From NCBI RefSeq assembly GCF_032062105.1, contig NW_026929032.1, positions 248,001 to 312,000 on the forward strand: 64,000 nt of DNA, given 5' to 3'. The position numbers and the translations under genes were made by a program. Within the stretch, counting starts at the first letter, position 1. Each line of letters opens with the position of its first letter. This document shows positions 9,255 through 58,205 of this stretch, piece by piece. The DNA is from Saccostrea cucullata (taxonomy: Eukaryota). A model generated the notes under the pieces. It was not told where the DNA came from. It ran no database searches and was given only the letters and a program-made list of their open reading frames with translations.

Positions 9255-12113
9255 TCAGCCGATGATTGTGCTTGGATCTCCATCATTCCTTAGGCTGAAA
9301 AAAATTCAAATACGGACTTGGATTGATTGATATTATACATTGTAATATTCTAGATATTATTCGAAAATTTTCACTCATATATAGAGCCGCGTCACCAAAT
9401 ACTGTCAAAGAGTTTCTAATTTAGACCTTTTCATGGCACTAAAATACTTGATCAGTGAAGAACCTTTATCGTGTAAGCGTCTGTCGTGGCAAGAGACCTC
9501 GGTGTTGAAGGTCTCATTTTTTTCGTTTTAAACTATTGAGTGCCTTGCAAAGGAACAGTTGTTACATGTATCTTTGATAAACGACTTTGGTCAGTCGCGA
9601 CTCTATCTTCAAAGTTTCCGAACACGCCTCGAGCGATCTAACGAACAATAATGACTTTTATACAGTTGTGTACCTTGCAATAACGTTATCATTTGGATTC
9701 CATAAAATGCATGGATGTCAGTTAAAAGCAGCAAGAAGTGGACGTTAAACTGAACTGTGGCAAATGCACATATTTATATTGCTAATTGGTTTGAATATAA
9801 TATGCGATGGCTGTTCGGAAAGATTATGGGCCATATTACATTGTAATCTTCGTAATTTTATTTTAAAGAAGTTTCAAGTAAATATAGTATCAAAAGTAAA
9901 TATATTTTTTTTGATGATGTGTTCAGGTAAGGTCAAATGCAATGTAGTTTAAACTTTTTGGGTTCTTCCCTGGAGTTGATTGTTTCCACTAAATGAAGGA
10001 CCCGTGTGAAATACTTTTAATGTCTATATATGGATTTGTGCACCTCTTCTAAAACAATTTTTGATTAAAAAAATATCTGGAATTTATGTTTTGTAATTTT
10101 TGTGCATTTTTCTTTGAATGATGCAAATTTTTTTTTACAATTTGATATCTTTTTAAAACCCCTAGTAACGCATGCTGATTTTTTTTATCTAAGAACATGT
10201 AATGGTATTGTAAGTTTAAATTTACAATATCTTCAAAATTATCAGTAGGTGAGATACGTTGCGTTTGTCCTTAAATTTCATATCATTTTGAAAGAAATCA
10301 TGTTACTTAAAATTTATAACAACATGTTTTGTAACCATGGAACACTGTTTACAGCACCGTAATGTCAAAAACAGTGTCAAGAACATCTAAAAAAAAAAAT
10401 ATTCCGAAAGTCCACAAAATTTGCAAACACTCCTTGTTTATATATTTGTATGCAAAATACTACTCTTCAAAGCATTGATTTTTATGTTTTGATCAGATAG
10501 AATATGTTTAAAGTCATATTTATTGTATTTTTTTTTTTATCACCTCAACTAATATTTACAGTATGTATATACTACATATCACATATATGTATACTTTTTG
10601 ACCTCAAGATTATTTATAATTCATAAACGAAAAAGTTTTGCAGGTTTGAAATCAATTGTTAAAAGTTAAACAATATATTTTTTTAATTATAGTAAGTATC
10701 CCCAAACTTGGAATTTGCTTTACGTTATGAGTATCACAAATGACCAAAAATTGCAATCTTACTTTTTCGCATATGAAGAAAAGCTTCGAATCGCAGGGTT
10801 GATCGTTCCAATGGAACTTGGATGCTCCATTGTGTAACATTAAGCAGCTCTCATGCAGACCACCGTTGGGTTCACCAGGGTTCCAATCTGCGAAGCTTAT
10901 TTTCTTTTGTGTAGTTATCCAGATCCATTCACCGTCAATTAAAACATCTGTACGTCCCTATCCAAAAGCTCCCTATAAAAATTACAATTAACCATCTTCT
11001 GAAGCAAAAAATATGATATCGGTTGTTTTTAATTTGTATAATTCCTCTGCTTTAGTATCTGTTGGCAACATCATTCAGAGAAGAAAATAAGTACAGGTTC
11101 TACCAACACTATTTTGAAATTACAGGAAATCTAAGATTATTTTATACAAAATTATTTGGTACACTGTAACATAAAACCTAGATTTAACAAGAAAAATTCC
11201 CTTCGAAAAGATCTTTAAATTTTGAATTTTTAGGAATTGAAATATCAAATGAATTTTGATTATATTGCATGAAGAGGTTACCGTCTACATTTATAGAAAT
11301 ATTTTTATGAATAGAAAATACCTTTTAAAACTTAAACTCATATTTATTCATGCAAAGTTAAAAAAAGAGAATGCTCAAGGTTGACTTTCACCCAAAGTCT
11401 GTTGTATTATACATGTAATTGTCTCTTTTGTATTATTACCTCCAGTTTGCTGGTAATTGTCAATGGCATGCAATCGAAGAAAGCTGTCTTCTTCTGCAGT
11501 TTCAATTTCTGCTAGCTTTGCACCCATTCGATTACAAAAAGACTGAAAATTCAATTATATTCTTATTCATAGTACTCTTATTTCTACTTATGTAAATTTG
11601 AAACTTATTTCTAGTGAAAATTAAGTTATAAATTCCTTTATCTTAAAATATTTCCAGTTGGTATTTGATTGATTGTCCGAATAAAGCTACCCCAGCTTCC
11701 GTCCAGTCTACAGGATAACCGGTGGCAAATACATAACAGGACGTGTGGAAGTGGATCCATGGGGCAGGACATGGAGTTTCCCCACGAGTGAGACGTGCAA
11801 CACAAAATAACAACACTGAAAAGGTACACAGAACATTTATTTGCAGGATCTCTACAACATTTAGACGTATTACTTTTTTATTTATTGTTAGAAGGTTAAT
11901 TGAAAAGACAAGACTCTATATAAAATCTTGATCCTTTAGGGGGAAATAAAATAAGGTGTCCACAGTCAACCTAAATCACGGATAAGATAAAGCATGTCCC
12001 AGTTCTCTACCTAGTATGCATATATTTCGATCAGGTTTAGCATTAAAATCATTTTTGGAATTAGTTAAGGAGGTTCACTTACCGAATTCGAAAAGGTAAA
12101 CCAAACCGTTCAT
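9255..12113 (-). pseudogene. C-type lectin (perlucin-like), copy 2, frameshifted; exons 12083-12113, 11691-11815, 11440-11542, 10763-10972, 9255-9294
   Basis: MNGLVYLFEF/VLLFCVARLTRGETPCPAPWIHFHTSCYVFATGYPVDWTEAG/SFCNRMGAKLAEIETAEEDSFL... is highly similar to copy 1, with EPN and WND intact. An extra base in GGG (10956-10958) gives a TGA at 10935-10937, and the exon 4 donor is out of phase with the last exon (LRNDGDPSTIIG*). Both lesions lie in homopolymers, so they may be assembly errors. Confidence 0.8.
9320..9640 (-). mobile_element. Degenerate SINE-like repeat in the last intron of lectin copy 2
   Basis: GATTGATTGA tail followed by ...TTCACTCATATA...CGTCACC...CTTTATCGTG...GACCTCGGT...GGTCTCAT. 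This resembles, from memory, the reverse complement of an abundant oyster SINE. Boundaries approximate. Confidence 0.5.
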
Positions 12114-15213: not shown

Positions 15214-16315
15214 CTAGTTAAGTCTCCATCCAGAAAATGTTGATCGTGCATCCGATGAGCTTTCTATATTTCCAACGCCAGACACGGTCTCGTGCGTTTT
15301 AACAAAAACAACATCATCTTTATTCAGATGGGCAACGACTATACCAGTAGATGCATGGCGATCACCATTGTCATACGAGTTTGCCAGGGCACTGTTCCAT
15401 ATGTTTTGATTGATGATAAGGTTTGAAAAGGCATAACTGTGGGCGTCTGAGTAGATATTCCACGTTATCACATACAAGCCATTTGCAGGAACAGTGAAAA
15501 CGCCAGTATACTTATTATAAGAATCTCCTATATTTGTCTTCACAACATCAAAAATAAGTGTATGGTGAGGGGCCAATGTGTGTTCGTCTGTGCTCATATA
15601 GGAGTAGAATGCGCATTGGTTGTGTAGATCATTGTCTGGAAAACTCTGCGAAAGAAGGCGAAGTTCTCTTGCTACAAAAGATTGAACACCAAATCAAAAT
15701 GGTACACAATTATAATATGATATTGGTTACCAAAACCGTATGATAACTGCAATACTATTGTATATACTTCGTGTATTTCAAATAAAATACAATAGAAAAA
15801 GATATTGACAAGACTTGTCATATTCTACCAATTACACCTTTTTAAAATAGTTACGTTCTTCTCATTGTAAAGTCAAACTTACAAGAAGGTCCCTTGCTAT
15901 TTTCGTTTTGGTGGTACTGCGTTTTCTGCCATTCTGAACTTATCAAAACATTTGCTATACTCCAGCCATTTCGTTTATTATCCACTTCTATGGCAGGACT
16001 GTTCATGGAATTGAAAATGGGATATTCCTTCATATTATTTATGATATTGTGTAAGACTTGTATTTCCGAGTTTTGAGATTCAATTTTAATCGAAAGTTCT
16101 TTAATTGTTTTTTCCTGTCCTTTGGCTTTTATTCGAAACTCATTCACAGTTCGGGTCAGTTCGTCCACCTTTTCTTTTAAACTGGTCAATAACTCTCCCT
16201 GTTGCTTGATTGTTCCCAGCAGCCCATCAGAGTTTTGCATCTGGCCATGAGCTTTGCGAGAATAAAGAATAATTATTAAGACTACGACATATTTGCACAT
16301 ATGAGAAAACGTCAT
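15214..16315 (-). CDS. Secreted C1q-domain-containing protein with N-terminal coiled coil (~296 aa); exons 15883-16315, 15214-15671
   Basis: Signal peptide (MTFSHMCKYVVVLIIILYSRKAHG), heptad-rich segment, phase-1 intron, then SRELRLL...CAFYSYMS...LIFDVVKTNIGDSYNKYTGVFTVPANGLYVITW...HLNKDDVVFV...STFSGWRLN*, a complete gC1q domain. Confidence 0.92.
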
Positions 16316-16544
16316 TGTTTGAATGTCCGTTGCCACGAAGGTAGTACGCTTGTTTATTCCAGTACAATCCAACTTATACTATGATAAGAAATAAGAAAGG
16401 TTAAGAAGCAAACTGAAGATAATCAACAGATACACGTTCATGTAATTGTTGATTATTTAATTTTCGACAATTTTTTAAAAACCAAAAATAAATTTAGAAA
16501 ACGATCGAGAAAAAGGGTGGCGTTCTAGAGTTGTAATAATTGTA

Positions 16545-18343: not shown

Positions 18344-21167
18344 TTATCCAACCAAGTCCCCATGCATCGCAAGTTCAATCCTGTGAAATAGAAAAAGATT
18401 GGGGAAAGAATCATTCACCATTAACGTTTTACTATATTGTTTCACTTAATTGTTAAACAAAAGCTGTCTATAAAAGATTTTAACAGAAAAAAAACTTTTT
18501 CAAAGATCTACGTCTCTGTTGTTTTTAATACTCAAATATGTATTATGAATCAAGAAAGGAAAAATAGCATTGTATATATAAATGCTCTGGGATTAATAAA
18601 ACAAAAACAAATGGTTGTAGGAAGCATTACACGAAATTGAAAAAGAAAATCATACTCCATTTCACAAATGAAGCTGAATTTTCTATCGCAGTAATCATCG
18701 TTCCAGTGATGATTTAAATTTCCCGCCAAAGTCATGCACGCTGCACTAACACCATTAACTGGTTCCCCTGGTGACCAGCCGACATATGTGAATGGACGCT
18801 GCCTCGTTACCCATACCCAATGGCCTTCTTCAAACGCATCTGTTGCACCAACCCAGTATGTATCTACAAAATAAGGAGACTTGTGTTGAATTTTGATGAA
18901 CCATCTTATAGTTATACTTTCTCTTTTTTCAACAGCACTCTCTTTTGATTCTCTGTCTATTTCTCTCAAATCTTACCATGATTTGAAGATATATGGTGTC
19001 GTAGGAAATTATCTTCATCCTGCGTCTCAATTTCCGCTAGATGAGAAGCAAACCTCTCACAAAAAGCCTGCATTAAAAAAGAGAAGACACACAGAGTCAT
19101 CACAAATCCTGTCCATTGATAAAAACAATACAAGTAGGAATTTCAGGTACACGAGTTCCAATTTTTATCGAAGTTGTGTAGCTTGAAATACATCTGCTCT
19201 TCATTTATGTTTTAAATAAAGCTTTATGAGCATAGATGACATATCTATAAAGTAAAAGATCTTAGATTGCTTGAATAAAAACATGAAAAAGATATATAGA
19301 TAAAGAGCTGAAATTGCGCACAATCCTAATACATGTAAGTCAACTTGAAGTCACAGGTTTGTTCGGTTGCATTTTGTCCAGTGCAAAATTTCGCCATTTT
19401 TTGACATTGCAAAGCGTTGAATTACTGACAAATGTAGTAATTAAAATCCTTAGATCCTCAATTCACTAATACATGTATATAGCTAGGTTACAAACTTCTG
19501 AATCATCATTACTGATGTACTTACAATTTTTTGTTAACAAAAATATTAGTAGTAAAATCTATTTAGCTACCCAGAACATTCAGGTTTCATGCAGCACTCG
19601 CAATACTATTTTACTAATGTATGTGTTTAATAATACAACTTATTATTCAAGAAAACAGTTTTCAATCAAACACTGTTCAATTTAGAATTTCTCAGAATTC
19701 TGGACTAATTTATTCCAAAAGCATCTCACTAATCACTTATACCGAGAATAAAGCAAATTAGTAGTACTCAAAACAGGAAGTATGCTTCTCAAATTGTTTA
19801 AACTCATTCAAAACTTTTCAAGGTAGAACTTCCGATCACTTGGGAATTTATATCCTCTATATTTAGATCCACTGAATATTTTCCTTTTTATTTCTTATGA
19901 ATACCATTGCCATTTATCAGTGCATGAGCACCACTAAGCAAGCTACGTATGTGGATTTCTTAAACAATGGCTGTTCCATCAGTTCTACATACAATGACAT
20001 ATTCATCTTAGATACAATAGTCAATAAATTTAATTTTACTTTGAATGAATGAATAATACAAATGTTAATATAAACAATAAAATGCTTTCTTTGTTAGTTA
20101 GTACGGGAATTAACGTCGCAGCTATTGAAGAAAAAAATACGTAACCTGCTTACCCGGGTAATGTATTTTTTCTTCAACAGCTGCGACATTAATTCCCGTA
20201 ATAACAACCAAAGAAAGCATTTTATTATTTTAAAAACATCAACTTTAAAACAACTCATCCGAAAAGTATATGTCGCTGAAAATCTAAAGGATGTGAGTGA
20301 TAATTCATGGCCAGGGTAACAATATGCGTTCACTTGCAATTATGGTTTGAGTTCTATTTACTAGCATTTGAATTCTTCTTTAATTAGTAATATTCTAAAA
20401 AGTGTACAATCCACTTGTTTAGAAATCAATATTCTATATCTTTTTATATCAAATAATAAGCTTTAAAAAATACGACATGCTCAATACAAAGCATTTTCTC
20501 TGATTCTGGATTCTGAAGATTAATGCAGACTAGCATAATTCTGGACATTTTGTCTGTTAGATAAACTTCTGAACCACAGGTACGAATTCAAAACCTTATT
20601 GCGCATCTGAAAGTCAAATGAAATGCAAAGAAAATTTTATGCAATGTATTAAGAGAAATAAGGAAAAAAAGTTCGACCGATAGACAGACTTTAGAGGATT
20701 GTAACAATATGCCTGAGCTTTCCTTAGAGTCTTTGTATCATGAAATTCAGAGAACATATTTCAGAGCATCTTTTTAATTAAAAGCACTTTCCTCATTTTA
20801 TCGATATCAGTTCACGGAGAGTTTAATACATTATTTTTCTAATATCTGTATTTTTGTTTTCTCTCCTCCTTTGCACATGATCATATTTCTGGAGTTTTAG
20901 AGATCCATTTTACTCCTTTCCTATTTTGTAATTTAAAATCAACTTTTGCCCTTGAATAATGTTCATTATATCCAAATATTTTATTTCAAGTGTAAAATGA
21001 AATGTTATGAAAAATACATATACCCCAGCTTCAATCCAGTCGGTTTTTAGATCTGTGACAAAAGCGTAACAAGAACGACCATGTAAGTACCAAGACTCGG
21101 GACAAGGATTGAATGCTACTGCGTTAGTTGTCAGGAAGGCTGTGGATACTGCAAAAATATATTGCAT
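18344..21167 (-). CDS. C-type lectin (perlucin-like), copy 3; exons 21024-21148 (or from ATG 21167), 18977-19067, 18656-18863, 18344-18380
   Basis: In-frame splice model: VSTAFLTTNAVAFNPCPESWYLHGRSCYAF...DWIEAG/AFCERFASHLAEIETQDEDNFL.../DTYWVGATD...WSPGEPVNG...WNDDYCDRKFSFICEME/IELAMHGDLVG*. Same intron positions and phases as copies 1 and 2. The true first exon was not located. Confidence 0.9.
20104..20198. repeat. ~95-bp near-perfect palindrome (tiny foldback MITE) flanked by TA
   Basis: TA|CGGGAATTAACGTCGCAGCTATTGAAGAAAAAAATACG...ATGTATTTTTTCTTCAACAGCTGCGACATTAATTCCCG|TA. Confidence 0.8.
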
Positions 21168-22786: not shown

Positions 22787-25516
22787 TCAAGATGTTTTCT
22801 CTTTAAAAACAATTCTAGAAACCATTGAATCAACATGTGTTTCGTCAACATTGACTATAGTAAATCCACATTGTTCTATGAATTTTCTGCGGTCTTCAAC
22901 TCCCCATCCGGCCCCGTGACCAATCGCTGGACTTTCTGACATACTATTCGGTAAGCAAAAAAATACACTGTATGGCAGATGAGTCTTTGCAGCCTCGTTA
23001 TCAACATTTTTTGAAACGTCCGACGATACGTCAGGGTCAAAGGTCACAATATATCCATTAGGTTTCAGGATCGTTTTCAACTCTGATAAAACTCGTTCTG
23101 GATCGGGTAAGTCATGCAGAACTTCATGTAATATAATAATATCAAACTTGTTCTTCTGTAGTGGAGTCCCATGTTTCGTGTGTGTGAAGAATAGGTTAGG
23201 ATAACTATATGTGTTCCTACAGTGTTGTATAGACCCCTCGTCGATATCTGTTCCTGTGATATTGATATCTGGATAGATTTGTGCTAGCTGTTGACAAAGT
23301 TTTCCGTAACCGCAACCAAAGTCAAGAATATCAGTGATATTATCTGTAAATAGAAATAAATCTTATAAGTGAATTCACACGAATTTCTTGAAAGTAAGGC
23401 AAAAGATTTTTTTTATATATTTATTATCTACGGAGTTACTACTGAGGTATAGAAAATTTCTTAACGTGGTCCACCTGTCATTGTGTTTGGTCTTTGATAC
23501 TTTTTTTTTTTTATTTTTTTACATAAATACTTAAGTCTAATGCAATTTACACGAAAAATAGGTGAGGACAGCAAACAGTGATTGACCTTTAAAAAATCTA
23601 TAAACAATACAAATCGGTAAAGAGGGCATAAAACAAAGACTCGTGACTTTTTGGATGTGGGATAATATGCCAAGGAGGAAAAAGCAATCCCCTGTTAACT
23701 GATCACATGAAATAAAATTAGATGAAACATTGGATGGATGCATTTAAAATGTCATGCATCAAAGCTTGCCTTTTTCTTACCTTGAGTATCTTTAAAGTGT
23801 TTTTCGAAAACTGGCTCTAAATTATTATGAATCCAGTCATGGTCAAAGGCATTTATTTCGTTAAATTTTCCTAACCATTCCAAATCTTTCTGTGGAAAAG
23901 AATACCCTGGTTGAATGAAAATTAAAATAAATGTGTATTTGTTTATGAAAACCATAAGCAGTGGATCATAACAACCAAGACAAAAATGTTTTTAAATATA
24001 CAAAAGGCATTACAAAACAAGGAAGAGGTTCGTCATTATCCCATTCATTAACTCATATGAACCGCATAATTATACAAAAAAAAATTGTAACTGGAAAATA
24101 GTGTAAGTTTCTGGTAAATTGTCATTGAAAACATATTTGGACTAACCTGTATTTGTGTCCTTGACTCGCATTACCGTCTCCAGTTTTGGTAAACAGTCAC
24201 AGAACAATGGTAGCATGGCGGATGTAAGAACAGCCTTTTGAACTCTCTCAGAGCAAGGTAGACTAAATTTCTCCTTTTCCAGTTTTATTATGCCTTTTGC
24301 CGTCATACAAGTTAGCCATTCCTGTACATATCTAAAACCAATAATAACAAGAAGTGTTTGTGAAACACTGATGCCCCGATTTGGCAGCATAATTATGGCA
24401 AGTGTTGAAATTTCTCAAATGCGCGTTGTACTCCAAGGCTAAGGTCTAAAGGCTGTAGGTACCCAAAGGGTCACAAGGAATCAATCTTTGAAATATGAAA
24501 GCCCTAGCACTAACGGTTTAAAAGATATGGTTTACCTTTTTTTAAAGTAAGTCAAACTCTAAATACAAGGTCAGAAGGTCAAAATTTATACCCAATAACA
24601 GATCTTAGTAAATACTCTTGTGAGGTATGAAAACCCTAGCACCAACTATACAGTTATGATTATGGTTAAATTTCGAAAATTTTTGGTAAAAGTGGGTCAA
24701 GGTCCCATGGTCAAGTTTGGTAAAAAAAAAGAAAGGTCTTGTCAATGAATACATCTGTGAAATGGAAAAGCCATAGCCCTACGTATACACATTAAAAGTA
24801 TTGGACAATGTTAAAGTTTTTGCTGTCAAACATACAATTTAAACAGACAGCTAAACAGACAGACGAACGGATGGATAGGGCAAAATCTTTGATTACGGGA
24901 CAAAAATACACACCTGATAATTTATAAATGAAGTTGTGACATTGAAAATTTAAAGCAATTTGTTTACTGACATGCATCTAATGCATATTTTTTTCTCATA
25001 TTAATAAAGTCATAATCGATATAGTACATAAATATGGCAACAGATGTTAACAATCCGATTTTTTAATAATCCTGCAAGTTATGTTAAAGTAAAATGATAC
25101 TGAGGCATGTTGTAATATATACATGTATTAAATAAAATGTTGATTTGCAATAAGATTTTAACCAATTGATTGAAAATTGTCAATGTCTTTTTTTCAAGTT
25201 ATAAAAGTGCATGGTCGTTGTCTTCGCCTTTTTCAAAAGCTGAGGAGGAGATAATTAAATAAATGTACAGTAAAAATTATTTGAAAAGAAAGAAATACCT
25301 AAGATTTAATCCTGCTTCTTCACTGATCTCTTTTGCTGTTGATGGTTTGTTTAATCGTCCAAAGGCATCAATAATGCCCACTTTGTATCCTAAAGCCAGC
25401 ACCATTGCATGTAGCCCGCTTGTCACCGTTTCTTCAATGACTTTTTCTACGGAATTCATTTCGTTTAGCTTTTGTTCCATATTGCATTCCTTACTTTTAA
25501 CTTTCTCCTCTTCCAT
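22787..25516 (-). CDS. SAM-dependent methyltransferase, Rv2258c-like (N-terminal winged helix plus class I MTase), 361 aa; exons 25299-25516, 24147-24331, 23781-23906, 22787-23343
   Basis: Open spliced frame. N-terminal LALGYKVGIIDAF...TAKEISEEAGLNLR/YVQEWL..M...GII. SAM motif I ILDFGCGYG, ITGTDID, KFDIIILHEVLHDLPDP, LKPNG. C-terminal YSVFFCLPNSM...GHGAGWG. Confidence 0.92.
24345..24906 (+). mobile_element. Helentron-associated non-autonomous element (HINE-like) in methyltransferase intron 1
   Basis: Starts AACAAGAAGTGTTTGTGAAACACTGATGCCCC; the same terminus occurs reversed at ~44525-44560. Internal degenerate ~150-bp repeats (GGTCAAGG...GAAAGCCCTAGC) and a GACA-type microsatellite near the other end. 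Confidence 0.6.
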
Positions 25517-27370: not shown

Positions 27371-29113
27371 GGCCAAAATATAAAATACCTTTGTTTCCCC
27401 TAACGCGACTGACCCAACTAAATCGCGCCCACTGAAAAGATTTTTTTAAAAAAGATGATTCAATTTTTTTTTTTAATGTTAACCAAGTTTTATAAAATAC
27501 AATTTCATCAAAATCAGTTTTTATCAGAACGGCCGACATTGTTCTACTGTGATTTTCAAGCATTTGTTGGAAATGAAATGGCGCCCAGATATGATTACAT
27601 CTAGAATTAGTTCTTCATAAAACAATAGCGGCGTCTCAATCTTATGCCTTTAGCTAATTAGAATTCTTCACTCTTGAAACAATTCGATAATAAAATTACT
27701 TCTTAACTCCAAAATGCTCTAGAACCACTGCAGATCTCATGGCCCTCAAAAAAGTACATTGATTGTCTATAAGCAATGGAGGGTGATGGAAGGTTTGAAA
27801 AATATACTCGGATGTCCGGTGTTTGCGTATTTGAGAATCTTGTCTTTTTTATTTCGATTTATACAAATTTTGTAAACAAAATAAATGCATGCATTAAAAA
27901 ACATATCCCAACAAAAACCATAACAATCCGTCCCAGAGATAAGGCATTTATGAATAATTCTATTAGAAAACTAATGAGGAAAAGAAATCGTATACACAAG
28001 AAAGCAGTGAAAACTCAAAACCCTCAACACTGGGAACACTACCGCATTTTAAGAAACAAAGTAATTGATGAAATTAGAGCTTCACGAGATAGACTCAACC
28101 AAAAACTTACAGACCAAATAGATAAATCTATACCTCCTGGAAAATGGTGGAGAATAGTAAAGTCTTTATCCAAACAAAATAATAAAAGCAAACCACCACC
28201 ACCTTTAAAGTATCCTTTATAAACTAAAATATTATGGTATATCAGAACAAATTGTTAATTGGATTGAGAATTACTTGTCTGATAGAACTCAAAAAGTAGT
28301 TCTTGATGGCTTTTCATCAACTACTAGAGCTACTAATTCAGGTGTCCCTCAAGGGTCAGTCCTTGGTCCCTTTTTATTCTTATTGTATATTAATGACATA
28401 TCTGAAAAATTATCATGTCCTGTAAGGCTTTTTGCAGATGACACCTCTCTTTATGTCATAGTTGATGATGATATTATTAATTCTGCAAACATATTAACTA
28501 AGGATCTTGGACAAATAAGACAGTGGTCTAATATATGGGCAGTAGAATTCAATCCTTGTAAAACAGTCAATCTAGATTTTAGTAGGAAAAATATTTGCCA
28601 TCCAAAAATTAAGTTTGGTGAAGATGGGCCCACTATTAAAAATGTTGAAACACATACTCATTTAGGAATAAGATTTCAACAAGATGGACTTTGGAATAAT
28701 TTACCATTTAATATCCGAAACCTTTCTTCACTTACATCATTCAAGACTGCCATAAAGAATATATACTGCATAAAACCTAAGAAATATTATAATTATGGAA
28801 GTCGTAAAATGAATATATTGCATTGTCAGTTGCGAAATAATGCTAGTAATTTAAATGCTGACTTATTTATATAAATGTGCTCTGGATTGAGATATTTCAC
28901 AAGTTCAACTGCATAACAGTTGTGAATTAATTAAGCATGAATTTTGCTTTTAAATGGCATATGTACGTTTCTTATTTATAAAGGTACTTTTCCATTAAAT
29001 TTTAGAATGTATTTTAAAAGCTGTTGTCAGAAAAAATAGTTTACCTACCTACCGACCCAACTTGTCAATTTAAGGTCCGGTTAGAGGAAACAAAGATATT
29101 TTTAATTCTGGCT
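27371..29113. mobile_element. PIF/Harbinger-type non-autonomous element containing a LINE fragment
   Basis: Imperfect ~34-bp TIRs GGCCAAAATATAAAATACCTTTGTTTCCCCTAAC / GTTAGAGGAAACAAAGATATTTTTAATTCTGGCT, with 3-bp flanks TCA/ACA. Removing it restores continuity of the host RT. Confidence 0.7.
27776..28874 (+). mobile_element. CR1/L2-like LINE ORF2 remnant with internal deletions
   Basis: KKHIPTKTITIRPRDKAFMN...KWWRIVKS tether region; RT motifs SGVPQGSVLGPFLFLLYINDI and RLFADDT, WAVEFNPCKT, THLGI; then jumps to C-terminal LWNNLP...LHCQLRNNASNLNADLF. Confidence 0.85.

Positions 29114-41192: not shown

Positions 41193-41238
<46 letters not shown>
41193..41238. repeat. (TC)n microsatellite, ~23 units
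   Basis: Directly visible, between the divergent GNAT and orphan genes. Confidence 0.97.
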
Positions 41239-41359: not shown

Positions 41360-44307
41360 ATGGAAGTAAAAGGAGAAGAGGTAGGAAGTATCTTCATCTT
41401 TATCAAATACATGTAATTTTTATAAATGGTTATTACTTAGACGTACTTACTGAGATACACTCGCATCTCATTGTAATGAACGATCGAGTTAACTGTTTTA
41501 ATCCATATAAAGAATTAAAGGTAACTAGTCTTGATTGGAAAACATGATATGCAATTAACAACTGTCATATTCTGAGAGTCATAATCCTTAGTTTTATTAT
41601 AGGGGTAGACATGGATTATCTTTCTTTCCGGTAATTTTTATCATATAATGGTAGCTTATAAATATTTCCATTTTTTTATTTATTTTGCTAAAACAACTAG
41701 TGTTCAATTGAATGACGTCATAATACCAAATGACATCACAATACCAATGTCGTCATAATGCCTTTTGCATTATTCTTGGTTACCGTTTAGTTGCATGTTT
41801 TCTTACGTTGTTCTTTGAACATTACAATGGCAAGTTCATCGACGGTAAGTTGTGAGGAAAATTCTACTCATTACACTCTAGACTGTTACAAGTAACCGAC
41901 TTAATTACATGTGATATCATTTAATTTATATAACGCTATATTCTATAGTATAATACTCCTTGATAATTAACATTTAATTAAATTGGTTTCAGATAGTACG
42001 TAACATCCTCGACGAGGTCCTTTACAAGGTGTACAGATATTGTACTACTGAGTACAGGTATGTAAAACAAATACTAAAATTATATACATGTATTTGATTC
42101 ACTAGCGTCTTTTACAAATATTTTACCAATTCTTTTAAACCTGTTATAGTTCTGGAGATTAAAGTTGGTTTAATTTGTTTCTTCCTCTCAGCGTTCCCAA
42201 AGAACAGAAAAATATGCCCCCTGCTTTACTCGGAGGTTCTGATGACAAAATAGATGTAATTGCAAAACGGGATTTCTACGCGGAGCAACAAATAACGATG
42301 AAAAAGGTAAAATAAAAGACTAGTACTCTATTAAATAAATAATGTTGCAAAGATGACGAATCGAATGCTTTCCTAGAAAAATAAAATCGTTATACCGTAG
42401 ATAGTACTATTTCATCTATAAGGAAAAGCACAATTTACTCCTTGAAATCTTTGAGTGCAGAGGAGCACAATTAAATTAATTGTTGTTTAATATTCATGAT
42501 ATTAATCAACAGATATATCGCAGAGTTGCCCGGGAGACTGTGCGAGATTTAATTATTCTTGCAACAAAACAGGCTAATGCAAGGTAAATATGATTTAAAA
42601 TTGAAAATGTTATATTAATACTAGTAATTCTTTAGATTAAATTGTCTCTTGTCCCTCTAAGCCGTACGACAACAAATATTGTACGTTTCAAGAGAAAAAT
42701 ATGTTAAATATCATGCATACACTGTATTTATGTTGAACTTTTTTTTTGTTTTTGCTTTTAGCCCAGACAAGGGACAATTGGCAACAACTTCACAATTCCG
42801 ATTCGCAAATTACGAAGCACAAAAGTATGCATATCAACAGCAGATGGAAAATAAGAGAGTGAAAATACACAAGGTACATGTCTATTGATCAGAAAAATAT
42901 TTATTTCAAATACCTATAAATTCATAATATATATTTCTTATATTAGAGGTACACACTGAATATGATTTTCTGATTTTTCTCCTATAATGATTATAAGTGA
43001 TTTGTTTTAACTTTCAGAAACTGCAGGTTAAAGTCACAGTTGGATCAGAAATTGTCCAATACACACTCAGACCCCCGACCAATCGTACAAAAGTTGCAGA
43101 AGGAAACATGGAGATACAGAAATCTTATGAAGCCCAGAGGGAAATAACCCCAAAGGTATAAAAGTCATTTGTATGCTGAGTTCACTGGAAATTTAATGCA
43201 TTCTTCTAAATGTAATTTATCTCCTCATACATTCTTCATGGCCGTTGGTCAATAAGACTAGGAAAATATAATTTTTCCGATATATATAGTATTCTGTAAA
43301 AAACACACAATAGAAAAAATACAGTACTGAAATACATGTATATGCAACCCCCGCCATCCCACCATAAACAATTTCTTCCTACGTACGGGCTTACTCTTTG
43401 TAAATTATAAGAATGCATCTTTATATACAGTTGAAATCCGTTTTCACGAATTGCGTTAACTCCCATATCTCGAATACCAGAGATATGTTAAAGTGGGTTG
43501 ACAGTTCCAAACCACGTGCACTTGTTTCGGTAATAAATTTTTAACCCATAGTATAATAATATTTTCTTTATATGTAAACCCCCATGATCCAAATAATTGC
43601 TCGGATATTCTGAAGATTTATACAATGGCGTAAGCGATAGCGAAGTTTGACATTATTCGTTGAATTTTTGAAATAAGAAAGGAGAAAATAAAATAAACTG
43701 ATTTTCATCACCACAGTAGAGATTACACCTATCTTTTTTTCTTAAATAAAGTAATCCTTGACCTAAAATTTTAAAGATTTAGGGCTAGTGTTTTCATACT
43801 TTACATATTTGATCCCTATGACAAGATCTTTCATTTGATAACAATAACTTTGACCCTTTGACCTTGACCTTGGAGTTTGACCCACTTTTACATGAAAATT
43901 TTAAAATTTTACTTTGGCCATATCTTTAGAACAGTAGACACCAGGACAATTATACTTCACATTTGTATTGTTTGTTAAAAGATCTTCACTCGACACCAAC
44001 AACCTTGACCCTTTGACCTTGACCTTGTAGATTTCCGTACTTGTGAAAAAACTTTAACCTTGGCCATAACTTTTGAACGGTAATTAAGGGATAGGGCTTT
44101 CATACTTCATATATGTAATCCTTGTGAAAAGATCCTTCATTGGATACCAAAAACTTTGACCCTTTGACCTTAACCTTTGAGATTGACCTACTTTAAAAAA
44201 GCAAACCTTTACCATACATTTAAAGAGTTAGGGCTAGCGCTTTCATACTTTACACATTTGATCCTTATGACAAGATCTTTCATTTGATAACAATAACTTT
44301 GACCCTC

Positions 44308-44344
<37 letters not shown>

Positions 44345-44848
44345 ATTGAACGCTGACCATAACTTCTGAACGGTTAGGGATAGGGCTTTCATGCTCTACA
44401 TAAGTATTTTTAACATTAGCTTACCTTCAAATTTCACAATTGTTTTCTAGTGCGAATACCCTAAGTTTGGTACCAATTAATTAAATTAGAATTTAAGAAA
44501 TGCCTAATCTTTGCTATGTTGCCATACGGGGGCATCAGTGTTTTACAAACACATCTTGTTTTATACTTATAGGAGGACGATCCCGAGCCAAAAGGCTGGA
44601 GAAAATTATTGTGCTGTGGAAAACCACAGAAAAAACAGGTAAACAGTCCTCTTCCTATCATTTTCCTGTTCATTGTTCTGAAGGCCTCACTCACATATAT
44701 GATCGTGTGATATATTGTATATAAAACATGATAACTGCAATTAAACGTTTAAATAACGTAAATATAATTCTTCTCTCAACAGGCTAAAGAGAAGAGAAAG
44801 AAGTTGGGGTTGCTGAACAGATTGTGCCAATTTTTTGCCCGTCGTTGA
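41360..44848 (+). CDS. Uncharacterised 195-aa protein; exons 41360-41380 (alternative 41827-41844), 41993-42057, 42192-42306, 42513-42583, 42762-42873, 43018-43155, 44783-44848
   Basis: Seven GT-AG exons with matching phases (0,2,0,2,0,0) give a stop-free frame: MEVKGEE/IVRNILDEVLYKVYRYCTTEYS/VPKEQKNMPPALLGGSDDKIDVIAKRDFYAEQQITMKK/IYRRVARETVRDLIILATKQANAS/PDKGQLATTSQFRFANYEAQKYAYQQQMENKRVKIHK/KLQVKVTVGSEIVQYTLRPPTNRTKVAEGNMEIQKSYEAQREITPK/AKEKRKKLGLLNRLCQFFARR*. AATAAA at ~45030. Confidence 0.85.
41713..41755 (+). promoter_or_regulatory. Three tandem CRE-like motifs upstream of orphan exon 1b
   Basis: TGACGTCA (41713), TGACATCA (41731), TGTCGTCA (41748), spaced 17-18 bp, 70-115 bp before ATG 41827. 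Confidence 0.35.
43428..43655. mobile_element. Possible degenerate Tigger/pogo-like MITE
   Basis: TA|CAGTTGAAATCCG...TCTCGAA start and GATAGCGAAGTTTGAC end; TIRs are heavily decayed. Confidence 0.3.
43755..44562 (-). mobile_element. HINE-like element with ~150-bp tandem array (about 4 units) in the last intron of the orphan gene
   Basis: TTGACCCT(T/C)TGACCTT(G/A)ACCTT at ~43850, 44005, 44156 and 44299; terminus GGGGGCATCAGTGTTTTACAAACACATCTTGTT, the reverse of the 24345 terminus. Confidence 0.75.
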
Positions 44849-45211
44849 ATCGTCTGAAATTTGGCCTTAATTATTGATTCTTAGTTTATCATTTTTGTGT
44901 CAGAAGATATTTGAAGATAATATTTAATTAATTCAAAGCATATGTATATGATTTCATTTGGACGACCCACTTTCTATAACGGTTACCATCATTTTGAGAT
45001 TTTAAGTTAAAAATGTGAACATTTTGTTAAATAAATCAAAATTTATGTTCTTGTGTATTTGCTTGGATCTTGAGTTAAAATGCTTTCCTCAAGTGGTCCT
45101 TTCCAGGCATAAGTTCTCATATAACTATATAAAAAAATACTCATTAAAAGTCCAGCCCCCTCATTTTGGTTGTGGTATTGTCAAATATGGTTGATTTAAA
45201 AGTTATTTGAA

Positions 45212-45899: not shown

Positions 45900-46420
45900 A
45901 CATCGAAGTATCGTTCAAGTCCAGTTCACTTTATCAATTCGATATTGTCGACATTGTATGTTGACATCGTCGACATCGCAAAGTAAAGAATGTTGAATCG
46001 ATATTGAGTTTACATCGTCTTCATTGTTATTGTTTCTACATGTCGACATCGTGATGTAAACAAAACAAATAAGAAGGCAACGTTGACACGATGTCGACTC
46101 GATATTGACCAACATTACGATGTCGACGATGTGAACAATGTAAACAAGAAAAGTGAAAAGATAATGTTGACAAGATGTCGATTTGATATCAACCTACATT
46201 GCGATGTCGAAGAAGTGAACAATGTAATCAACAGAAAAAGAGGAAGGCAATGTTAACATGAAGTGAACTCGATCAATATCGTTTTAATGTTATATATGGA
46301 GAGATAAACTAAGATGTTATCCAACATTGTCAGGTTCAATACTAGTATGTTATGATATAAGAAGTACTGGAACTTTAATACTGCGATGTCAACAATATCG
46401 AAAAACATCGTGCAGTTGCA
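45900..46420. repeat. Degenerate ~70-bp tandem array rich in GATGTCGA/TCGACAT
   Basis: AATGTAAACAA...GAAGGCAA(C/T)GTT(G/A)ACA.GATGTCGA...CATT.CGATGTCGA recurs several times; probably the interior of a foldback element. Confidence 0.6.
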
Positions 46421-52057: not shown

Positions 52058-53557
52058 TCACGGCAAATCTCTATATTCAAAAACTTTCACAATCCTGAAA
52101 CCAGTTCCAACCCACAATGCAAACTTGTACAGAGATAATGAAAATGGTTTTTTTATTTCTTTTTCTGTGATCAAGTATTTCAAAAACTCCCCTTTCGGAC
52201 TCAACACATGGATAAGACTATTGTACAGATCGGTAACAAGAATCTTACAGGCGGAGTCACACAACAAGTCTGTTGGATAGAAATTCTTCCTCAGATTCTG
52301 TCCACGATAGACATATTGCAAATTACCACATACAGAAATAATAAGAACCTCGCCTGCAGTGCTACTTGTCATATTGATAACACAGATATCAGAGTTATTG
52401 TTTTGACAGAGTCCTTCTGGTAATGTAAACAATCTCGTTTGACCGTCCTCCTGGTACTCATACTCGTGAATGACATCACCGGTTAATGTCAAGTGTTTCA
52501 CTAATCGCCTGCTGTCTGCGTCCAATACAAAATTATCTGTTTTACAATCTACCAAAGAAACAATAAACCCGCTGTCTACTGAAGTACTGATTCCTAATGG
52601 TTGAAGACCTATTACTGAATCTGCCCTCCAAAACGTTGATATTGATCCTGATGGCAGAAGGCGATGGATAAAAAGGTTTCCATTTGTTGTGAAATACATA
52701 CCATTATTAGTTACACACATATCTGTCACCTCTAATCCAATGTTGAATGTTTGTTTCTTTTCGCCTTGTTTGTTTAACAAATCAACATTAACAGAATTCA
52801 GACCGTACACGTAACATTCGTTTTCATTTAATGCCTTTACATACACAAGTGTACCTAGACTACATGCAACATAATGAAATGAATATATTTCACTAGCACT
52901 AATATTATCTAAATCAAAACAATCACCAAACAGTGATTCTAGCCTATCATCATTAATTACTTTTTCTTCATATCTCTGTGAAAAGTCACTGTTCCTTATG
53001 TCAATATTCAAATCACCTAGCAGATGTTTCAGGTCTCTGTGGTTCTCTACTAAGTTCTTATCAGACATGGTTCTGTTGTTCTCCTCCATGTATTTTACTA
53101 TTTTAATTATTTGATTCTTTATCTTGTCTTTTCGGGATTTCTCAAGAGTTAATTGCTCGTTTTTTCTACACAAATTGCTTTTCAATGCATCATCCTTGCG
53201 TTCCGTGATATCTGTAAGCTTGGCAATAATTTCATCAAAATGCTTCTTTAAAATTTTCCTCTGTGATTCACATGTTATTTCATTTTCAGCCTTCTTTATT
53301 GCTATTTTTTTATCTACATCTGGCAATTGTTCTTGCGTTATATTCCTTAGAAACTCCAAGAGTCCTTTCCTTCTCTGACTAGCAGCCACACCCTGTGTGA
53401 CCCAGTTGTGATCATAATGGTCCGTTTTTGCACAAGTAGAACAAATGAATTCATCATAATCCTCACACACCAAATCGACCGGTAAATCATGATTTTCACA
53501 CATTTGTATATGTTCTTGAAGAGAATCTACCGAAATTCGTGGTTTACTTGCTGCCAT
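52058..53557 (-). CDS. B-box/coiled-coil/NHL beta-propeller protein (RING-less TRIM-like), 499 aa, single coding exon
   Basis: B-box CENH...VCEDY...ICSTCAKTDHYDH, helical coiled coil, NHL-like repeats (PLGIST, LFTLPEGLCQNNNSDICVI, FYPTDLLCDSACKILVTDLYNSLIHVLSPKGEFLKYL). The ATG was chosen by alignment to the paralog start MAASKP; the ORF extends to 53632. Confidence 0.9.
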   Translation of the reverse strand: MAASKPRISVDSLQEHIQMCENHDLPVDLVCEDYDEFICSTCAKTDHYDHNWVTQGVAASQRRKGLLEFLRNITQEQLPDVDKKIAIKKAENEITCESQRKILKKHFDEIIAKLTDITERKDDALKSNLCRKNEQLTLEKSRKDKIKNQIIKIVKYMEENNRTMSDKNLVENHRDLKHLLGDLNIDIRNSDFSQRYEEKVINDDRLESLFGDCFDLDNISASEIYSFHYVACSLGTLVYVKALNENECYVYGLNSVNVDLLNKQGEKKQTFNIGLEVTDMCVTNNGMYFTTNGNLFIHRLLPSGSISTFWRADSVIGLQPLGISTSVDSGFIVSLVDCKTDNFVLDADSRRLVKHLTLTGDVIHEYEYQEDGQTRLFTLPEGLCQNNNSDICVINMTSSTAGEVLIISVCGNLQYVYRGQNLRKNFYPTDLLCDSACKILVTDLYNSLIHVLSPKGEFLKYLITEKEIKKPFSLSLYKFALWVGTGFRIVKVFEYRDLP

Positions 53558-54319
53558 TTTACAAACCTCCTTTAAGTTGCCGTCATTCAGTATAGATTGG
53601 AATAGAATAAACTCATAGGTGCATACATGCATTAAAATAAAAATTATATCTCTTTAAACTACATTAAGAAACAAAAGAAACGGCAGCGGTTTTGTTTAGA
53701 GTCTACTGTAATTTTGTTCATATTTAAATGATTAAATTGTCTGAAGAACTTTTATAGACAATGGCTCTTTTTAAATGTTACAGAACTGTCAAAGAGACAG
53801 ATAGAGATCATTCCATAAAAATTTACGGTAAGAATGATACAAAGAAATCTGGTGTCTTTCTACATACGTCATATAATGTATTGTCTTGTGCGATGAATTG
53901 CAAAAAAATGGCAAGGATTAATGAAGTGGTTTGTTATCTTTTGGTCTGTGCAGATAATTTTAAGTACTTAGTTAAATCCAATTAATACATATCAGTTCAA
54001 AACAACGTCACGCTCAATATGAGTATTCTTTTTTACTCGCTCTTAAATAAAATAAAAGACTGAGTTCCAAATAAAGGTAACATAAAAATAATCAAAATTT
54101 TCACTTGGCACGATCATGACCATATGTACCGTAAATACAATTTTTGTTAATATATATTGAACTACAGACTTCTTTGAAATACAAGTACCAAAACAAGGAC
54201 TGTAAGCTTAAGGGTGCATATACAAGGCAAATATTAAAGTACATGTATGCTGCGTCTGTCCTGATAAGCTTGAGTGCTGTATGACTGGAAAATTATAAGA
54301 GTAATTGTTTATTCACCAT

Positions 54320-56805
54320 TTTTCACTTTCACAAACCTTTAAAAATTGCCACCCAAAGTGCAGACTTTTACAGCGATAATGCCGAGAGTATTGTTACTTC
54401 TTTTTCTGTCAATAAATATTTCGACAATTCTCCATCAGGACTCAAGTGGATCAGGCTATTGGGTGTATCAAGAACAAGAATGTTATGAGTTGATTCACAC
54501 ACAATATCTGCAGGATATAGCTTCTCTTTCAGGTTCTGTCCACGGTAGACACGACGCAGACGACCCGAAAGAGAGACAATCACAACTTCAACTGTAGTCT
54601 CACTTGACAAGCTTGTTACACAAATGTCTGTGTTCCTATTCTGACAAAATTTGTATGGCATTGTAAATAGTCTGGTTTGACCGTCCTCCCGGAATTCATA
54701 TTCATGAATGAATACCGGAGAGTGTGAAGTGGCGCGACAAATGTCGTAATACAGTAACACCAACAGTGTTTGCCTCTCAAAGAATTTTTCTTCATTATTA
54801 GGTAAAAAAAGATAAAAGATAAAATAATTGTACAGTTCTAAAAGATCAAAGGGTGTAAATTTTTGGTTTACTGGTTCTCAAGGGAAGGTCTTGTCACAAG
54901 GAAGACCCATGCGTAAGATACGCGGGTATGTTAAGGAAGCATATAAGTCATTTCTCGGAAAATTTAGACTTTTTAAAGAAAATTAAGTTTGATAATTTAC
55001 CAAAACCTCTGATAAATGTAAACTGTTATTAACTATTGCGTACAGATAAAAGAGTGTCTAACGGAACGACGTGCACCACCGCCACGGGATCACGTGACTT
55101 CTATTAATAGCGAAATCTTCCTTAATAAAAAAGCTAACAGAACAACAATACCCCGAAGTTTAATAATTTCTTTGAGTAAATAATATAGTCGAAAAACATC
55201 TATTTTTCCTAAAAAGTGCTGCTAGAATCCCACAGTCCTGTCAGTAAAAGAATTATTCCACACATTCGTATGAAACCTTACCCAATGTTTTGAATTTTTT
55301 ACATATGAACCGAGATTTTTCGTAAAACCATGCTGAACTCGGGATTCTAGCAGCACTTTCCAAGTTTTTCATAAGACAAACTTTCTATCTATACAAATTT
55401 TATGTTTTGAAATATCCAGCTTATTGTTGTTCTGTGCATTATTTTTGTCACGAACGACAGAGGAAAAGCCGACTGGTATACGTATATAGCTGACTTTCTT
55501 CGAAAGAGAATATAATCGATGAAAATAAATTAGCATACCTGTTTATTTAACTGAACTCCATATGAATTTCACATAATGTTCACGATATTTCCTTTTAAAC
55601 TCCATTTTACGTATCTTTGTACATGTCGTCTTAGCCAAATTCTCTTTACACGACATGATCTATTCCCAAGTTTATTGATGTACACATATGACGTCATCGG
55701 TGGTAGATTTTAATTGAAATGACAGATACATCATAACGAAATAAAAACATTTTATTTTTGTTAATGTTTAAACGTTTCTATTTATTTTCTAGAGTTCAAT
55801 TACATCTCTTAATACCAATATATACGAAAAGTTTTGTTATACAATTGACGTCATTTAGCCTACTATGACGTCATAATGTAGCACTGATTTAGTCAAGGTA
55901 GAATATTTTGTATGCTTCCTTATCACCCCTGCGTAACAACGGTAGCTGTATCCATTCAAAATTTAAGGCCAATGTTACAGTTTTGTAAACAAGGTTTTAA
56001 GCAGAAACGCGTGATTTTTCTACCCCATTTGAACTCTTGGATTAAAATGAAAATTAATTCGTATTGCGTATATCTACTGACATCAGTAACCATATTTAAA
56101 AAGATATGTTGGTACTGGCATGGTAAATGTAACAGAATATTTGGAACCTGTTTTTTTTTTTTTTGGTAAAAAAAGTAATAATAATAAAACAATCAAGCAA
56201 ACAAACAAACAACCCCCTCCCCCCCAAAAAGAGTTGAGAATGAAAATTCCATTATAGCACAACGTCGGAAAGCAGATGAATCAGATCTCTCCAGTTCTCT
56301 ATTAAGCCCTTATCTGACATAGTGCTGCTTTTCTCTTCCATGTAATTTTCAATTTGTATTATTTGCTCTTTTTTCTCGACAAAATGAGATTTTTCCTTGT
56401 CTAGATTTTCATTTTTCTCGTTACCTTTCAGTTCTTCTTCCTTGTTATTCTTGATTTCTGTTAACCTGGATATAATTTCATCAAAATTCTTTTTTAACTA
56501 TTTTATATGTATCTCACAAGAATTCTCGTTTTCAGACTTCTTTTTGGTCATCTTTTCATCAACTCTCGGCAGTTTCTGTTCTTTTATATCCCGCAGGTAT
56601 TCCATGAGTCCTCTTCAATTTGAGTGGCCGCCGCAGCCTGTGTCACCCAATTATGTCCATTGTGGTCTGATTTGGCACATGTGAAACAAATGAAAACTTC
56701 ACAGTCCTCACACACCATATCGACAGGAAAATCTTTGTGTTTTTCACACATCTGAGTATGTTCTTCAGGAAAACCACCGGCATATTTTGGTTTACTAGCC
56801 GCCAT
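54320..56805 (-). pseudogene. Tandem paralog of the TRIM-like gene, broken: 5' part ~56260-56805, 3' part ~54320-54710
   Basis: MAASKPK...CEKH...VCEDCEVFICFTCAKSDHNGHNWVTQ, then a frameshift and an internal stop. The 3' part reads IHEYEFREDGQTRLFTMP...YPADIVC...LSPDGELSKYLLTEKE. The middle is deleted and replaced by repeats. Confidence 0.85.
54935..55919. mobile_element. Kolobok-type non-autonomous element inside the TRIM pseudogene
   Basis: TTAA|GGAAGCATA ... TATGCTTCC|TTAT; internal inverted repeat AAAGTGCTGCTAGAATCCC (~55213) / GGGATTCTAGCAGCACTTT (55341). Confidence 0.6.
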
Positions 56806-58205
56806 TCTATAAACAGATGCTTCTCGTTCACCAAGGTGGGAAAGATAAGGTAACGCCGATAATGGAAAAGTGCATGTTGGAGAATCAAATATGCAGGTGC
56901 ACTACAAATGAGAGGATTTCCTAACCTTATACAATCATCTCTATAGATCAATAAACTAGCTTGTTCTAAATTTTTGTCGAATGACAGAAATGTCAAAACA
57001 AGCGAGTTTATTGCCTGACGTCACGGCGTCAGGTTGTATAAGGATTGATATTTCCGAGGTGCGAAGAGAAGAGGTCACAGTTAGCCAGGAAAATTTTGTG
57101 CATGCTGATTATCACTGGAATTTGTTACCTCCGTTTCAACAAAACATTTAGCAGAAAGAAATAACCGTCTTACTGATACAATATATATTGATGTGTTTAT
57201 TTCCTTTAGTTTTTTTTTTGCATGCAGCTGTTTATTTCATGCGATTTCATATACGGACATGATAGTAAGTATCAAATATTAAACAGTCGCATAATTGCCA
57301 ATTTTACGATACCTTCACATAATCGTTACCGTATTGCTGCGCCATTGCATTATTGTCATTGATACATGCTTACTGCATAATTGGTCATTGCACTATTTTG
57401 AACCCAAATCTTCATGGCGCAAAGACGCAAGATTGGACTTCCTGGTCCTATCTGGAATCCAGAACAAACCCTTGATGTGAGAAATTTTACATCGGGGACC
57501 TAATTTTAAGCAACCAATTTAGAGTTCTAAAACGAATCCTGTTGGAATCCAGATTAGGGCTTTGCAAATTACTATCGACCATCGATATGTTTGGGCGATA
57601 AGTTTGATATCAACGATCCAATTTTCATGCAAAGTCAAATGTGCCATACTTAATTTTTTGAAGGTATTGATATTTTTGAAAATAATTGTTTTTTATTGAA
57701 TAATTTAAATTAAATCAGACTAATAATTTAAAGCCACATTATATTATGATGTATGCAGATTTACCATCTATTATGTCTGAAATTTAGTTTATTCTATTAT
57801 AGAGCGTTTGTATAAGTTTTAAGAATATGTTAGCAATAACTCCTATATAAAAATTTGATCAAGTCATTACAGATTATGGATCTTGAGTAAGTAAAAAATG
57901 GAACGTGTGTCCGATCAAAAGTTAAGTTGCTATTGGCTTTTGTCGATTGCTATGTAGATAATACTAGATACCATTTGATTTAGAAATATTCCTTGTCAGT
58001 TTTTTTTTTTCAATTTCAGGCATCGATTTATTTGCATCTAATATATATTTATAGATATAACTTTTTAATATGACACCTGTACAATTGTAATGTAGAGAAA
58101 CATGATATCAATAATGTTAAATAGCGTGTCTCCGATCAAAAGATAATTTGGATTTTGTCAAATGGTATGCATTAGTTACAATTGTATTATGAAACTATAC
58201 TACTT

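What the first reader, a model, noticed from the sequence alone, without database searches (positions are those of the whole stretch)
41360..44848. Hidden 7-exon orphan gene with two AKAP-like amphipathic helices and a basic amphipathic C-terminal tail
Seen: a perfectly phased, stop-free 195-aa spliced frame; only one of its exons shows up in the ORF track, and I recognise no domain. Known: PKA-RII/DD-domain anchoring helices follow roughly [AVLISE]-x-x-hyd-hyd-x-x-hyd-hyd-x-x-hyd. Inference: (S/G)xxIVRNILDEV and ARETVRDLIILA fit this pattern, fully with exon 1b and with one deviation otherwise. The tail KRKKLGLLNRLCQFFARR looks like a membrane-targeting helix with a palmitoylatable Cys. This may be an undescribed lineage-restricted membrane-tethered PKA or DD-domain anchor, for example in sperm or cilia.
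Basis: partly seen in the sequence, partly recalled or inferred. Interest (0 to 1): 0.7.

Follow-up and report, generated by a model that had tools for sequence, protein, structure and literature searches.

The report
Oyster-only helix-docking membrane adaptor family
This is a real, multi-exon oyster gene from an unstudied family of many copies that we found only in rock and flat oysters; it keeps one short helix almost unchanged and has a tail predicted to stick to membranes, so it may (weak evidence) hold protein kinase A or a similar partner at the membrane.

Summary
It has 8 coding exons (216-217 aa), not 7: an in-frame exon at 44573-44638 carrying WRKLLCC was missed. RefSeq already annotates it as uncharacterized LOC134279632.

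It is no lone orphan. At least 16 close copies lie in this assembly, and relatives were found only in Saccostrea and Ostrea. The family is built from a repeated one-helix-per-exon module plus a basic, two-cysteine tail.

Helix 2 is under strong purifying selection (3 amino-acid against 22 silent changes, p=3e-8); helix 1 is not.

Helix 2 matches a published AKAP consensus at 4 of 7 positions. It scored 0.37 against the oyster PKA-RII D/D dimer (best control 0.04), which is weak support. RNA confirms five junctions for the family, but the reads lack this copy's private bases.

Best reading: a membrane-tethered, AKAP-like docking adaptor (0.4).

The parts
41360..41380 (+). Coding part of first exon 1a (MEVKGEE); transcribed sequence starts by about 41251
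   Evidence: joint 1a>2 in 10 reads of X10 and one contig of X6; X1 contig from 41251
41827..41844 (+). Coding part of alternative first exon 1b (MASSST), used in the RefSeq model
   Evidence: found in 9 of 13 paralog stretches; low read depth, joint not listed
41993..42057 (+). Exon 2 (65 nt, phase 0-2): amphipathic helix H1
   Evidence: pN/pS 0.49, not different from the rest
42192..42306 (+). Exon 3 (115 nt, phase 2-0): linker
42513..42583 (+). Exon 4 (71 nt, phase 0-2): helix H2, the conserved candidate docking helix (family repeat A1)
   Evidence: core RVARETVRDLII identical in 13 of 13 in-frame copies of 14 examined; 3 amino-acid vs 22 silent states; complex score 0.37 vs 0.04
42762..42873 (+). 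Exon 5 (112 nt, phase 2-0): linker
43018..43155 (+). Exon 6 (138 nt, phase 0-0): diverged remnant of ancestral helix repeat B1 plus linker
   Evidence: alignment A3; pN/pS 0.70; 14 genome matches
43740..44555 (.). High-copy repeat with an internal 143-155 bp tandem array, lying where paralogs carry two further exons (51 aa in P0002); the loss keeps the frame
   Evidence: contig depth in the tens of thousands
44573..44638 (+).
   Evidence: motif in 20 of 32 family proteins held
44783..44848 (+). Exon 8: lysine-rich stretch, terminal amphipathic helix, stop codon
   Evidence: last 35 aa net charge +12; exons 7+8: 21 amino-acid vs 23 silent states, p=0.002 against the rest
45030..45035 (+). AATAAA, likely polyadenylation signal
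   Evidence: sequence; read depth falls after 45015

Best explanation
The gene encodes a 216-217 aa protein with no predicted folded domain, whose basic, two-cysteine tail likely holds it on the inner face of a membrane and whose one strongly conserved helix (exon 4) would dock into a partner's groove, most likely the D/D dimer of PKA-RII or a related D/D protein, as an AKAP does. Shown: the exon structure, the oyster-restricted family, the one-helix-per-exon repeat design, and purifying selection concentrated on helix 2 and the tail. Inferred: palmitoylation, membrane binding, helix docking. Weakly predicted: the D/D partner. Longer family members carry three to six such helices and an N-terminal Arg/Ser-rich segment. 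This copy's subfamily appears to have lost that segment and let the other repeats drift, leaving a single-site adaptor; this copy further lacks two exons where a repeat now sits.
For: It matches the consensus LxxxAxxIVxxAIxxA (PMC3682517, passage) at 4 of 7 positions with 7 of 7 non-polar; chance in shuffles 2.75%. It is non-polar at 7 of the 8 face positions 2,5,6,9,10,13,14,17 named in PMC12083921 (passage). Ancestral repeats match at 3-5 of 7. Complex of the oyster RII-type D/D dimer with residues 58-92: 0.37, best of 3 controls 0.04; runs agree in at least 92% of contacts, partner pLDDT at least 66. The mark was reached by 51 of 78 solved and 2 of 108 mismatched pairs, but at 0.60 or under by only 5 of 78 solved and by all 4 mismatches that passed (of 180), so this is weak. 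The genome encodes two RII-type D/D domains; the one used matches solved RII D/D chains. Tail: WRxxxCC in 20 of 32 family proteins, including one from Ostrea; tail selection p=0.002. No folded domain: pTM 0.24 and 0.20.
Against: The complex pass is weak, peptides were outside the calibration, no alignment was used, and solved D/D-helix complexes exist, so it may be likeness from memory. No AKAP-related Pfam family appears among the hits shown (one search shows 25 of 32 families), and neither helix found any solved chain at E<=10. Helix 2 has Leu where the consensus has its second Ala and Thr where it has Ile; ancestral A repeats have Asn at that Ile position. The polar face (E74, D78) is invariant across 20 aligned proteins, whereas PMC12083921 reports less conservation on the polar face of AKAP helices. 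A shuffle test shows only helical periodicity, which any amphipathic helix has. No reads carry this copy's private bases. Tissue is unknown.
Confidence: 0.4

Rival explanations
1. Same anatomy, other partner: a membrane-tethered adaptor whose helix 2 binds a non-D/D helical groove (a vinculin-, FAT- or calmodulin-type partner) or drives self-association.
For: Polar-face residues are as fixed as the non-polar ones, which suggests contacts beyond one greasy face. The helix also matches the vinculin-binding consensus LxxAAxxVAxxVxxLIxxA (PMC6001692, passage) at 4 of 9 positions. Models give helices of 40 or more residues.
Against: In the vinculin register helix 2 puts charged residues on 3 of 9 core positions, against 0 of 7 in the AKAP register. 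The D/D complex beat all three controls. No other partner was modelled.
Confidence: 0.3
2. The family is functional, but this copy is a decaying duplicate or a structural allele: it lost two exons where a repeat inserted and may be little expressed.
For: Exons 6b and 6c are missing. It has 21 non-silent against 14 silent private base changes among the four closest copies, including both arginines of the tail helix. No laid read carries its private bases at the diagnostic sites.
Against: The frame and all splice sites are intact, the loss is in frame, helix 2 is unchanged, and dN/dS to six paralogs is 0.34-0.54. The reads come from other individuals of a polymorphic species.
Confidence: 0.15
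3. The helices bind lipid surfaces rather than a protein (apolipoprotein- or perilipin-like coat or membrane-shaping protein).
For: Repeated amphipathic helices, no globular fold, lipid-type tail.
Against: Lipid-binding helices usually tolerate substitution (general knowledge, recalled), whereas helix 2 is fixed residue by residue, and most other repeats have decayed in this subfamily.
Confidence: 0.1
4. Helix 2 acts on the PKA catalytic subunit as a pseudosubstrate through its R-R-x-A, which is new in this subfamily (ancestral repeats read Y-K-A-A).
For: The R-R-V-A change is kept in 12 of 13 in-frame copies.
Against: The next residue is Arg, not the hydrophobic residue expected of PKA inhibitor sites (recalled, not from a call). 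Not tested.
Confidence: 0.04

Closest known systems
A-kinase anchoring proteins, small membrane-tethered kind (smAKAP, AKAP18-alpha, AKAP79)
   Same: A 14-18 residue amphipathic helix with non-polar positions 2,5,6,9,10,13,14,17 (PMC12083921, passages), no folded domain, and a separate basic or lipidated targeting segment (AKAP79: polybasic regions and two palmitoylated cysteines, abstract of PMC9521714 in listing).
   Different: No sequence homology or Pfam match found; targeting segment at the C-terminus; Leu and Thr at two consensus positions; multicopy, oyster-restricted, built from exon repeats; binding untested.
Multi-helix AKAPs (SKIP/SPHKAP, AKAP220)
   Same: More than one candidate docking helix per chain in the longer family members.
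   Different: Those are dual-helix proteins that arose at the base of vertebrates (PMC12083921, section 4 read); here three to six helices come from a duplicated two-exon module.
Vinculin-binding-site helices (talin type)
   Same: V-x-x-L-I-x-x-A end of the helix; talin itself is reported as an AKAP (bioRxiv 2023.08.20.554038, passages), so the two classes overlap.
   Different: Three charged residues on the would-be buried face of helix 2 in this register.
RefSeq uncharacterized protein LOC134279632 (XP_062618033.1) and paralogs
   Same: Identical to the 1b-2-3-4-5-6-7-8 model.
   Different: No function, family or domain is attached; six of the family's locus names gave 0 papers.

Membership tests
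AKAP (functional class) | 14-18 residue amphipathic helix with non-polar residues at 2,5,6,9,10,13,14,17 | tested here: met
   Helix 2: 7 of 8 (Thr at 9); helix 1: 8 of 8 in one register. At least one such window arises in 38% of shuffles, so this is necessary, not sufficient.
AKAP (functional class) | Fit to the RII consensus LxxxAxxIVxxAIxxA | tested here: inconclusive
   Helix 2: 4 of 7 identical, 7 of 7 non-polar, 2.75% of 2000 shuffles; helix 1 under 3 of 7.
AKAP (functional class) | Helix conserved under selection | tested here: met
   Met for helix 2 (p=3e-8), not for helix 1 (p=0.30), among 7 annotated paralogs.
AKAP (functional class) | High-affinity binding to the R-subunit D/D dimer | tested here: inconclusive
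   Prediction only: 0.37 vs best control 0.04, weak support. Measurement needs the bench.
AKAP (functional class) | Targeting segment that localises the complex | not testable with these tools
   Conserved WRxxxCC, basic stretch and amphipathic end; localisation and acylation untested.
Named AKAP families in Pfam (RII_binding_1 and others) | Profile match | tested here: not met
   None among hits shown. The genome-wide PF10522 search rang nowhere, controls included, so it is uninformative.
Type I (RI-selective) AKAP | F/Y-A at helix positions 1-2 | tested here: not met
   Helix 2 has V-A before its core and I-Y/F at its start, no F/Y-A pair (motif from PMC12083921).
Vinculin-binding site | LxxAAxxVAxxVxxLIxxA with a non-polar face | tested here: not met
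   4 of 9 identical, 3 of 9 charged in helix 2.

The most novel reading that the evidence does not exclude
Flat and rock oysters invented their own AKAP family: a two-exon helix module was duplicated into multivalent, lipid-anchored scaffolds with three to six PKA D/D docking helices, the family spread to some 25-30 loci, and one subfamily was then pared down to a single re-tuned docking helix. That would be an independent invertebrate radiation of PKA anchors, with valency set by exon gain and loss.
Probability: 0.25. Interest if true: 0.7.

Novelty: new variant of a known kind. Interest (0 to 1): 0.42.

Why it matters
The published history of AKAPs places their main expansion at the base of vertebrates (PMC12083921, section 4), and a search for oyster with AKAP terms gave 9 papers, none on such a family by title or abstract start. 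If binding is confirmed, this family would show PKA anchors arising afresh and multiplying in one bivalve lineage, with a natural series of one- to six-helix variants to compare. If not, it is still an unnamed, expressed, oyster-restricted family with one sharply constrained 18-residue motif, which makes finding its partner a simple peptide pull-down.

Tried and rejected
Pfam scans of 4, 5 and 15 family proteins: nothing over a curated cut-off in the rows shown. ESM Atlas: best feature hit 0.79 and all structure rows under TM 0.5 for P0001; no usable hit for P0018. PDB sequence searches: the family profile gave 3 hits at E 0.4-4, chance level, one of them a WRRYLCC stretch of a GPCR chain, a look-alike only; single helices gave 0. 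The PF10522 genome search was uninformative. Fold searches were not run because both models are low-confidence (pTM 0.20, 0.24). The stricter helix pattern was written after seeing the sequences and is not used as evidence. The TAG stops reported in 8 distant exon-6 matches lie at the start of the match, where those exons begin a few codons later, so I read them as splice acceptors, not broken genes. PMC3058960 (passages) gave nothing usable. Searches of earlier scan findings returned nothing. Helix 1 and the ancestral B repeats were not modelled with D/D (one job only). Supplements of the papers were not read.

Full report
Observation. The spliced frame exists. A further 66-nt exon at 44573-44638 fits in frame and gives 217 aa with exon 1a or 216 aa with exon 1b. 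The 216-aa form is letter for letter the RefSeq protein XP_062618033.1, uncharacterized LOC134279632 of Saccostrea cucullata. The gene is thus already annotated, without a function.

RNA. Seven of 24 listed runs were laid. Joints 1a>2, 2>3, 3>4, 4>5 and 5>6 are shown as GT..AG, and depth is confined to exons. The missed exon has depth in X9, X10 and X1. Joints 1b>2, 6>7, 7>8 and 6>8 are not among the rows shown. The listed loose ends behind exon 6 continue into an exon this copy lacks. Where this copy differs from its close paralogs, the reads carry the paralog base, for example 38 of 38 at 42236 and 37 of 37 at 42288 in X10. So the family is expressed and spliced as modelled; this exact copy is not shown to be. 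Two runs of one study differ sharply (191 reads laid in X10, 5 in X11), but tissues are not given.

Family in this genome. Exon 6 has 14 matches among 17 candidates, exon 4 has 16 matches plus one intron-only row, and the tail region has 16 loci. Homology covers the gene and its introns and reaches little beyond. Some pairs are nearly identical (L016/L017, L011/L012) and may be alleles assembled apart. Longer relatives lie on further contigs, four on one contig, which gives a rough total of 25-30 loci. All 13 paralog stretches carry exon 6b; this copy has neither 6b nor 6c, and a high-copy repeat with a 143-155 bp internal array sits in their place at 43740-44555. The loss keeps the frame. The repeat resembles the Helentron-borne arrays described for the Pacific oyster (PMC7492417, title and abstract start only); I did not test that.

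Range. A profile of 15 family proteins against 1.84 billion representatives gave 14 hits at E<=0.001. The ten new ones are labelled S. cucullata (5), S. echinata (3) and Ostrea edulis (2); the other four are Saccostrea. No Crassostrea or Magallana protein appeared. Only predicted proteins were searched.

Architecture. In the one long relative whose exons I mapped (P0012), each of six helices begins exactly at the start of a phase-0 exon, and five of the six helix exons end in phase 2 after 21-23 codons, like exons 2 and 4 here. The family is therefore built from a repeated helix-exon plus linker-exon module. Long members read: an Arg/Ser-rich N-terminus, helix 1, alternating repeats A and B, then WRxxxCC, a lysine-rich stretch and a terminal amphipathic helix. 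In a midpoint-rooted tree of 21 proteins (region helix 1 to repeat A1; the other 11 proteins then held were left out), this gene's subfamily is a clade (100/100) inside the group of P0018 and P0021 (100/100). It lacks most or all of the N-terminal segment; repeat A1 is helix 2, B1 has diverged and A2 has decayed or been deleted. The direction of loss is inferred from this nesting and was not tested with a true root.

Selection. Among seven annotated copies, pairwise dN/dS is 0.34-0.70 over 21 pairs. By region pN/pS is 0.07 for helix 2, 0.34 for each tail exon, 0.49 for helix 1 and 0.50-0.75 elsewhere; these pairs are not independent. Counting distinct states per column instead, helix 2 has 3 amino-acid and 22 silent changes against 230 and 106 elsewhere (p=3e-8); the tail has 21 and 23 (p=0.002 against the rest); helix 1 has 11 and 7 (p=0.30). 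The 12-residue core of helix 2 is identical in 13 of 13 in-frame copies; the fourteenth has a 2-nt deletion. WRxxxCC is present in 20 of 32 family proteins held; most of the others are partial or truncated models, and two lack the cysteines.

AKAP test. PMC3682517 (passages) gives the consensus LxxxAxxIVxxAIxxA; PMC12083921 (passages and section 4) names the face positions 2,5,6,9,10,13,14,17. Helix 2 has 4 of 7 identities with all seven positions non-polar, seen in 2.75% of shuffles; ancestral repeats have 3-5 of 7; helix 1 has fewer than 3. The genome has five RIIa-family matches, two of them RII-like in sequence; one was checked against solved structures and matches RII D/D. Folding residues 58-92 with two copies of it gave 0.37, best of three controls 0.04, contact agreement at least 92%, partner pLDDT at least 66. 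The tool calls this weak: the mark was reached by 51 of 78 solved and 2 of 108 mismatched pairs, but at 0.60 or under by only 5 of 78 solved pairs and by all 4 passing mismatches of 180. Peptides were not calibrated, and solved look-alikes may inflate it. Against AKAP status: no Pfam or PDB match, Leu and Thr at two consensus positions, and an invariant polar face. The vinculin consensus fits less well.

Mechanism. Shown: a spliced, selected, non-globular protein (pTM 0.24) with one fixed helix and a conserved basic, two-cysteine tail. Inferred: the tail is acylated and binds membrane; the helix docks into a partner's groove. Weakly predicted: the partner is a D/D dimer. I put the AKAP-like reading at 0.4, another protein partner at 0.3, a decaying copy at 0.15, lipid binding at 0.1.

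Novelty. Six family locus names gave 0 papers; a search for oyster with AKAP terms gave 9 papers and one for Saccostrea family expansions 393, of which 15 were listed, none on this family by title or abstract start. Subscription journals and supplements were not searched. The gene itself is a known anonymous model; the family, its modular design and its single constrained helix appear undescribed. Interest 0.42; 0.7 if multivalent PKA anchoring is confirmed.

Noticed in passing
P0026 (XP_062568415.1): A RefSeq model named natriuretic peptide receptor-like has this family's N-terminal segment and helix 1 as its last 130 aa. It is probably a chimeric annotation, but a family copy next to a cyclase gene would be worth a look.
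   Followed up: no
P0019 and P0023 (S. echinata): Each carries an internal array of about ten short Val/Pro-rich repeats between two helix modules.
   Followed up: no
P0030 (Ostrea edulis): Has the family tail and ends in two further cysteines, a second possible lipidation site.
   Followed up: no
L037:806-1080, L038:947-1228: Two loci carry exons 7-8 but no upstream family exon was found in the stretch fetched (1.5 kb to contig end; 8.7 kb).
   Followed up: partly
L016 and L017: Nearly identical copies; L016 has a 2-nt deletion in exon 4, either an allele or an assembly error.
   Followed up: partly
window 41993-43155, run X10: Two sets of variant bases sort unevenly by first-mate direction (10 of 12 against 1 of 9 at 41998). 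Unexplained.
   Followed up: no
L014 and L018, intron after exon 6: Intron 6 is also much enlarged in these copies; L014 holds the same repeat family as the window.
   Followed up: no
window 52058-53653 (-), 54368-54877 (-), 56584-57020 (-): A 531-aa open frame with a B-box match below the curated cut-off, and two broken look-alike pieces nearby.
   Followed up: partly
window 10652-10957, 15214-16378, 18550-18972, 22787-23362 (all -): C-type lectin exons, a C1q-domain gene and a methyltransferase exon.
   Followed up: partly
window 27773-28874 (+): Reverse transcriptase remnant.
   Followed up: no
window 41193-41238 and 46054-46276: (TC)23 microsatellite just upstream of exon 1a; an 84-bp tandem repeat downstream of the gene.
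   Followed up: no
L034:1495-1629 (-): A second RII-like D/D domain whose reading frame runs on for 382 codons, into sequence that looks like a cyclic-nucleotide-binding domain; possibly a retrocopy.
   Followed up: no
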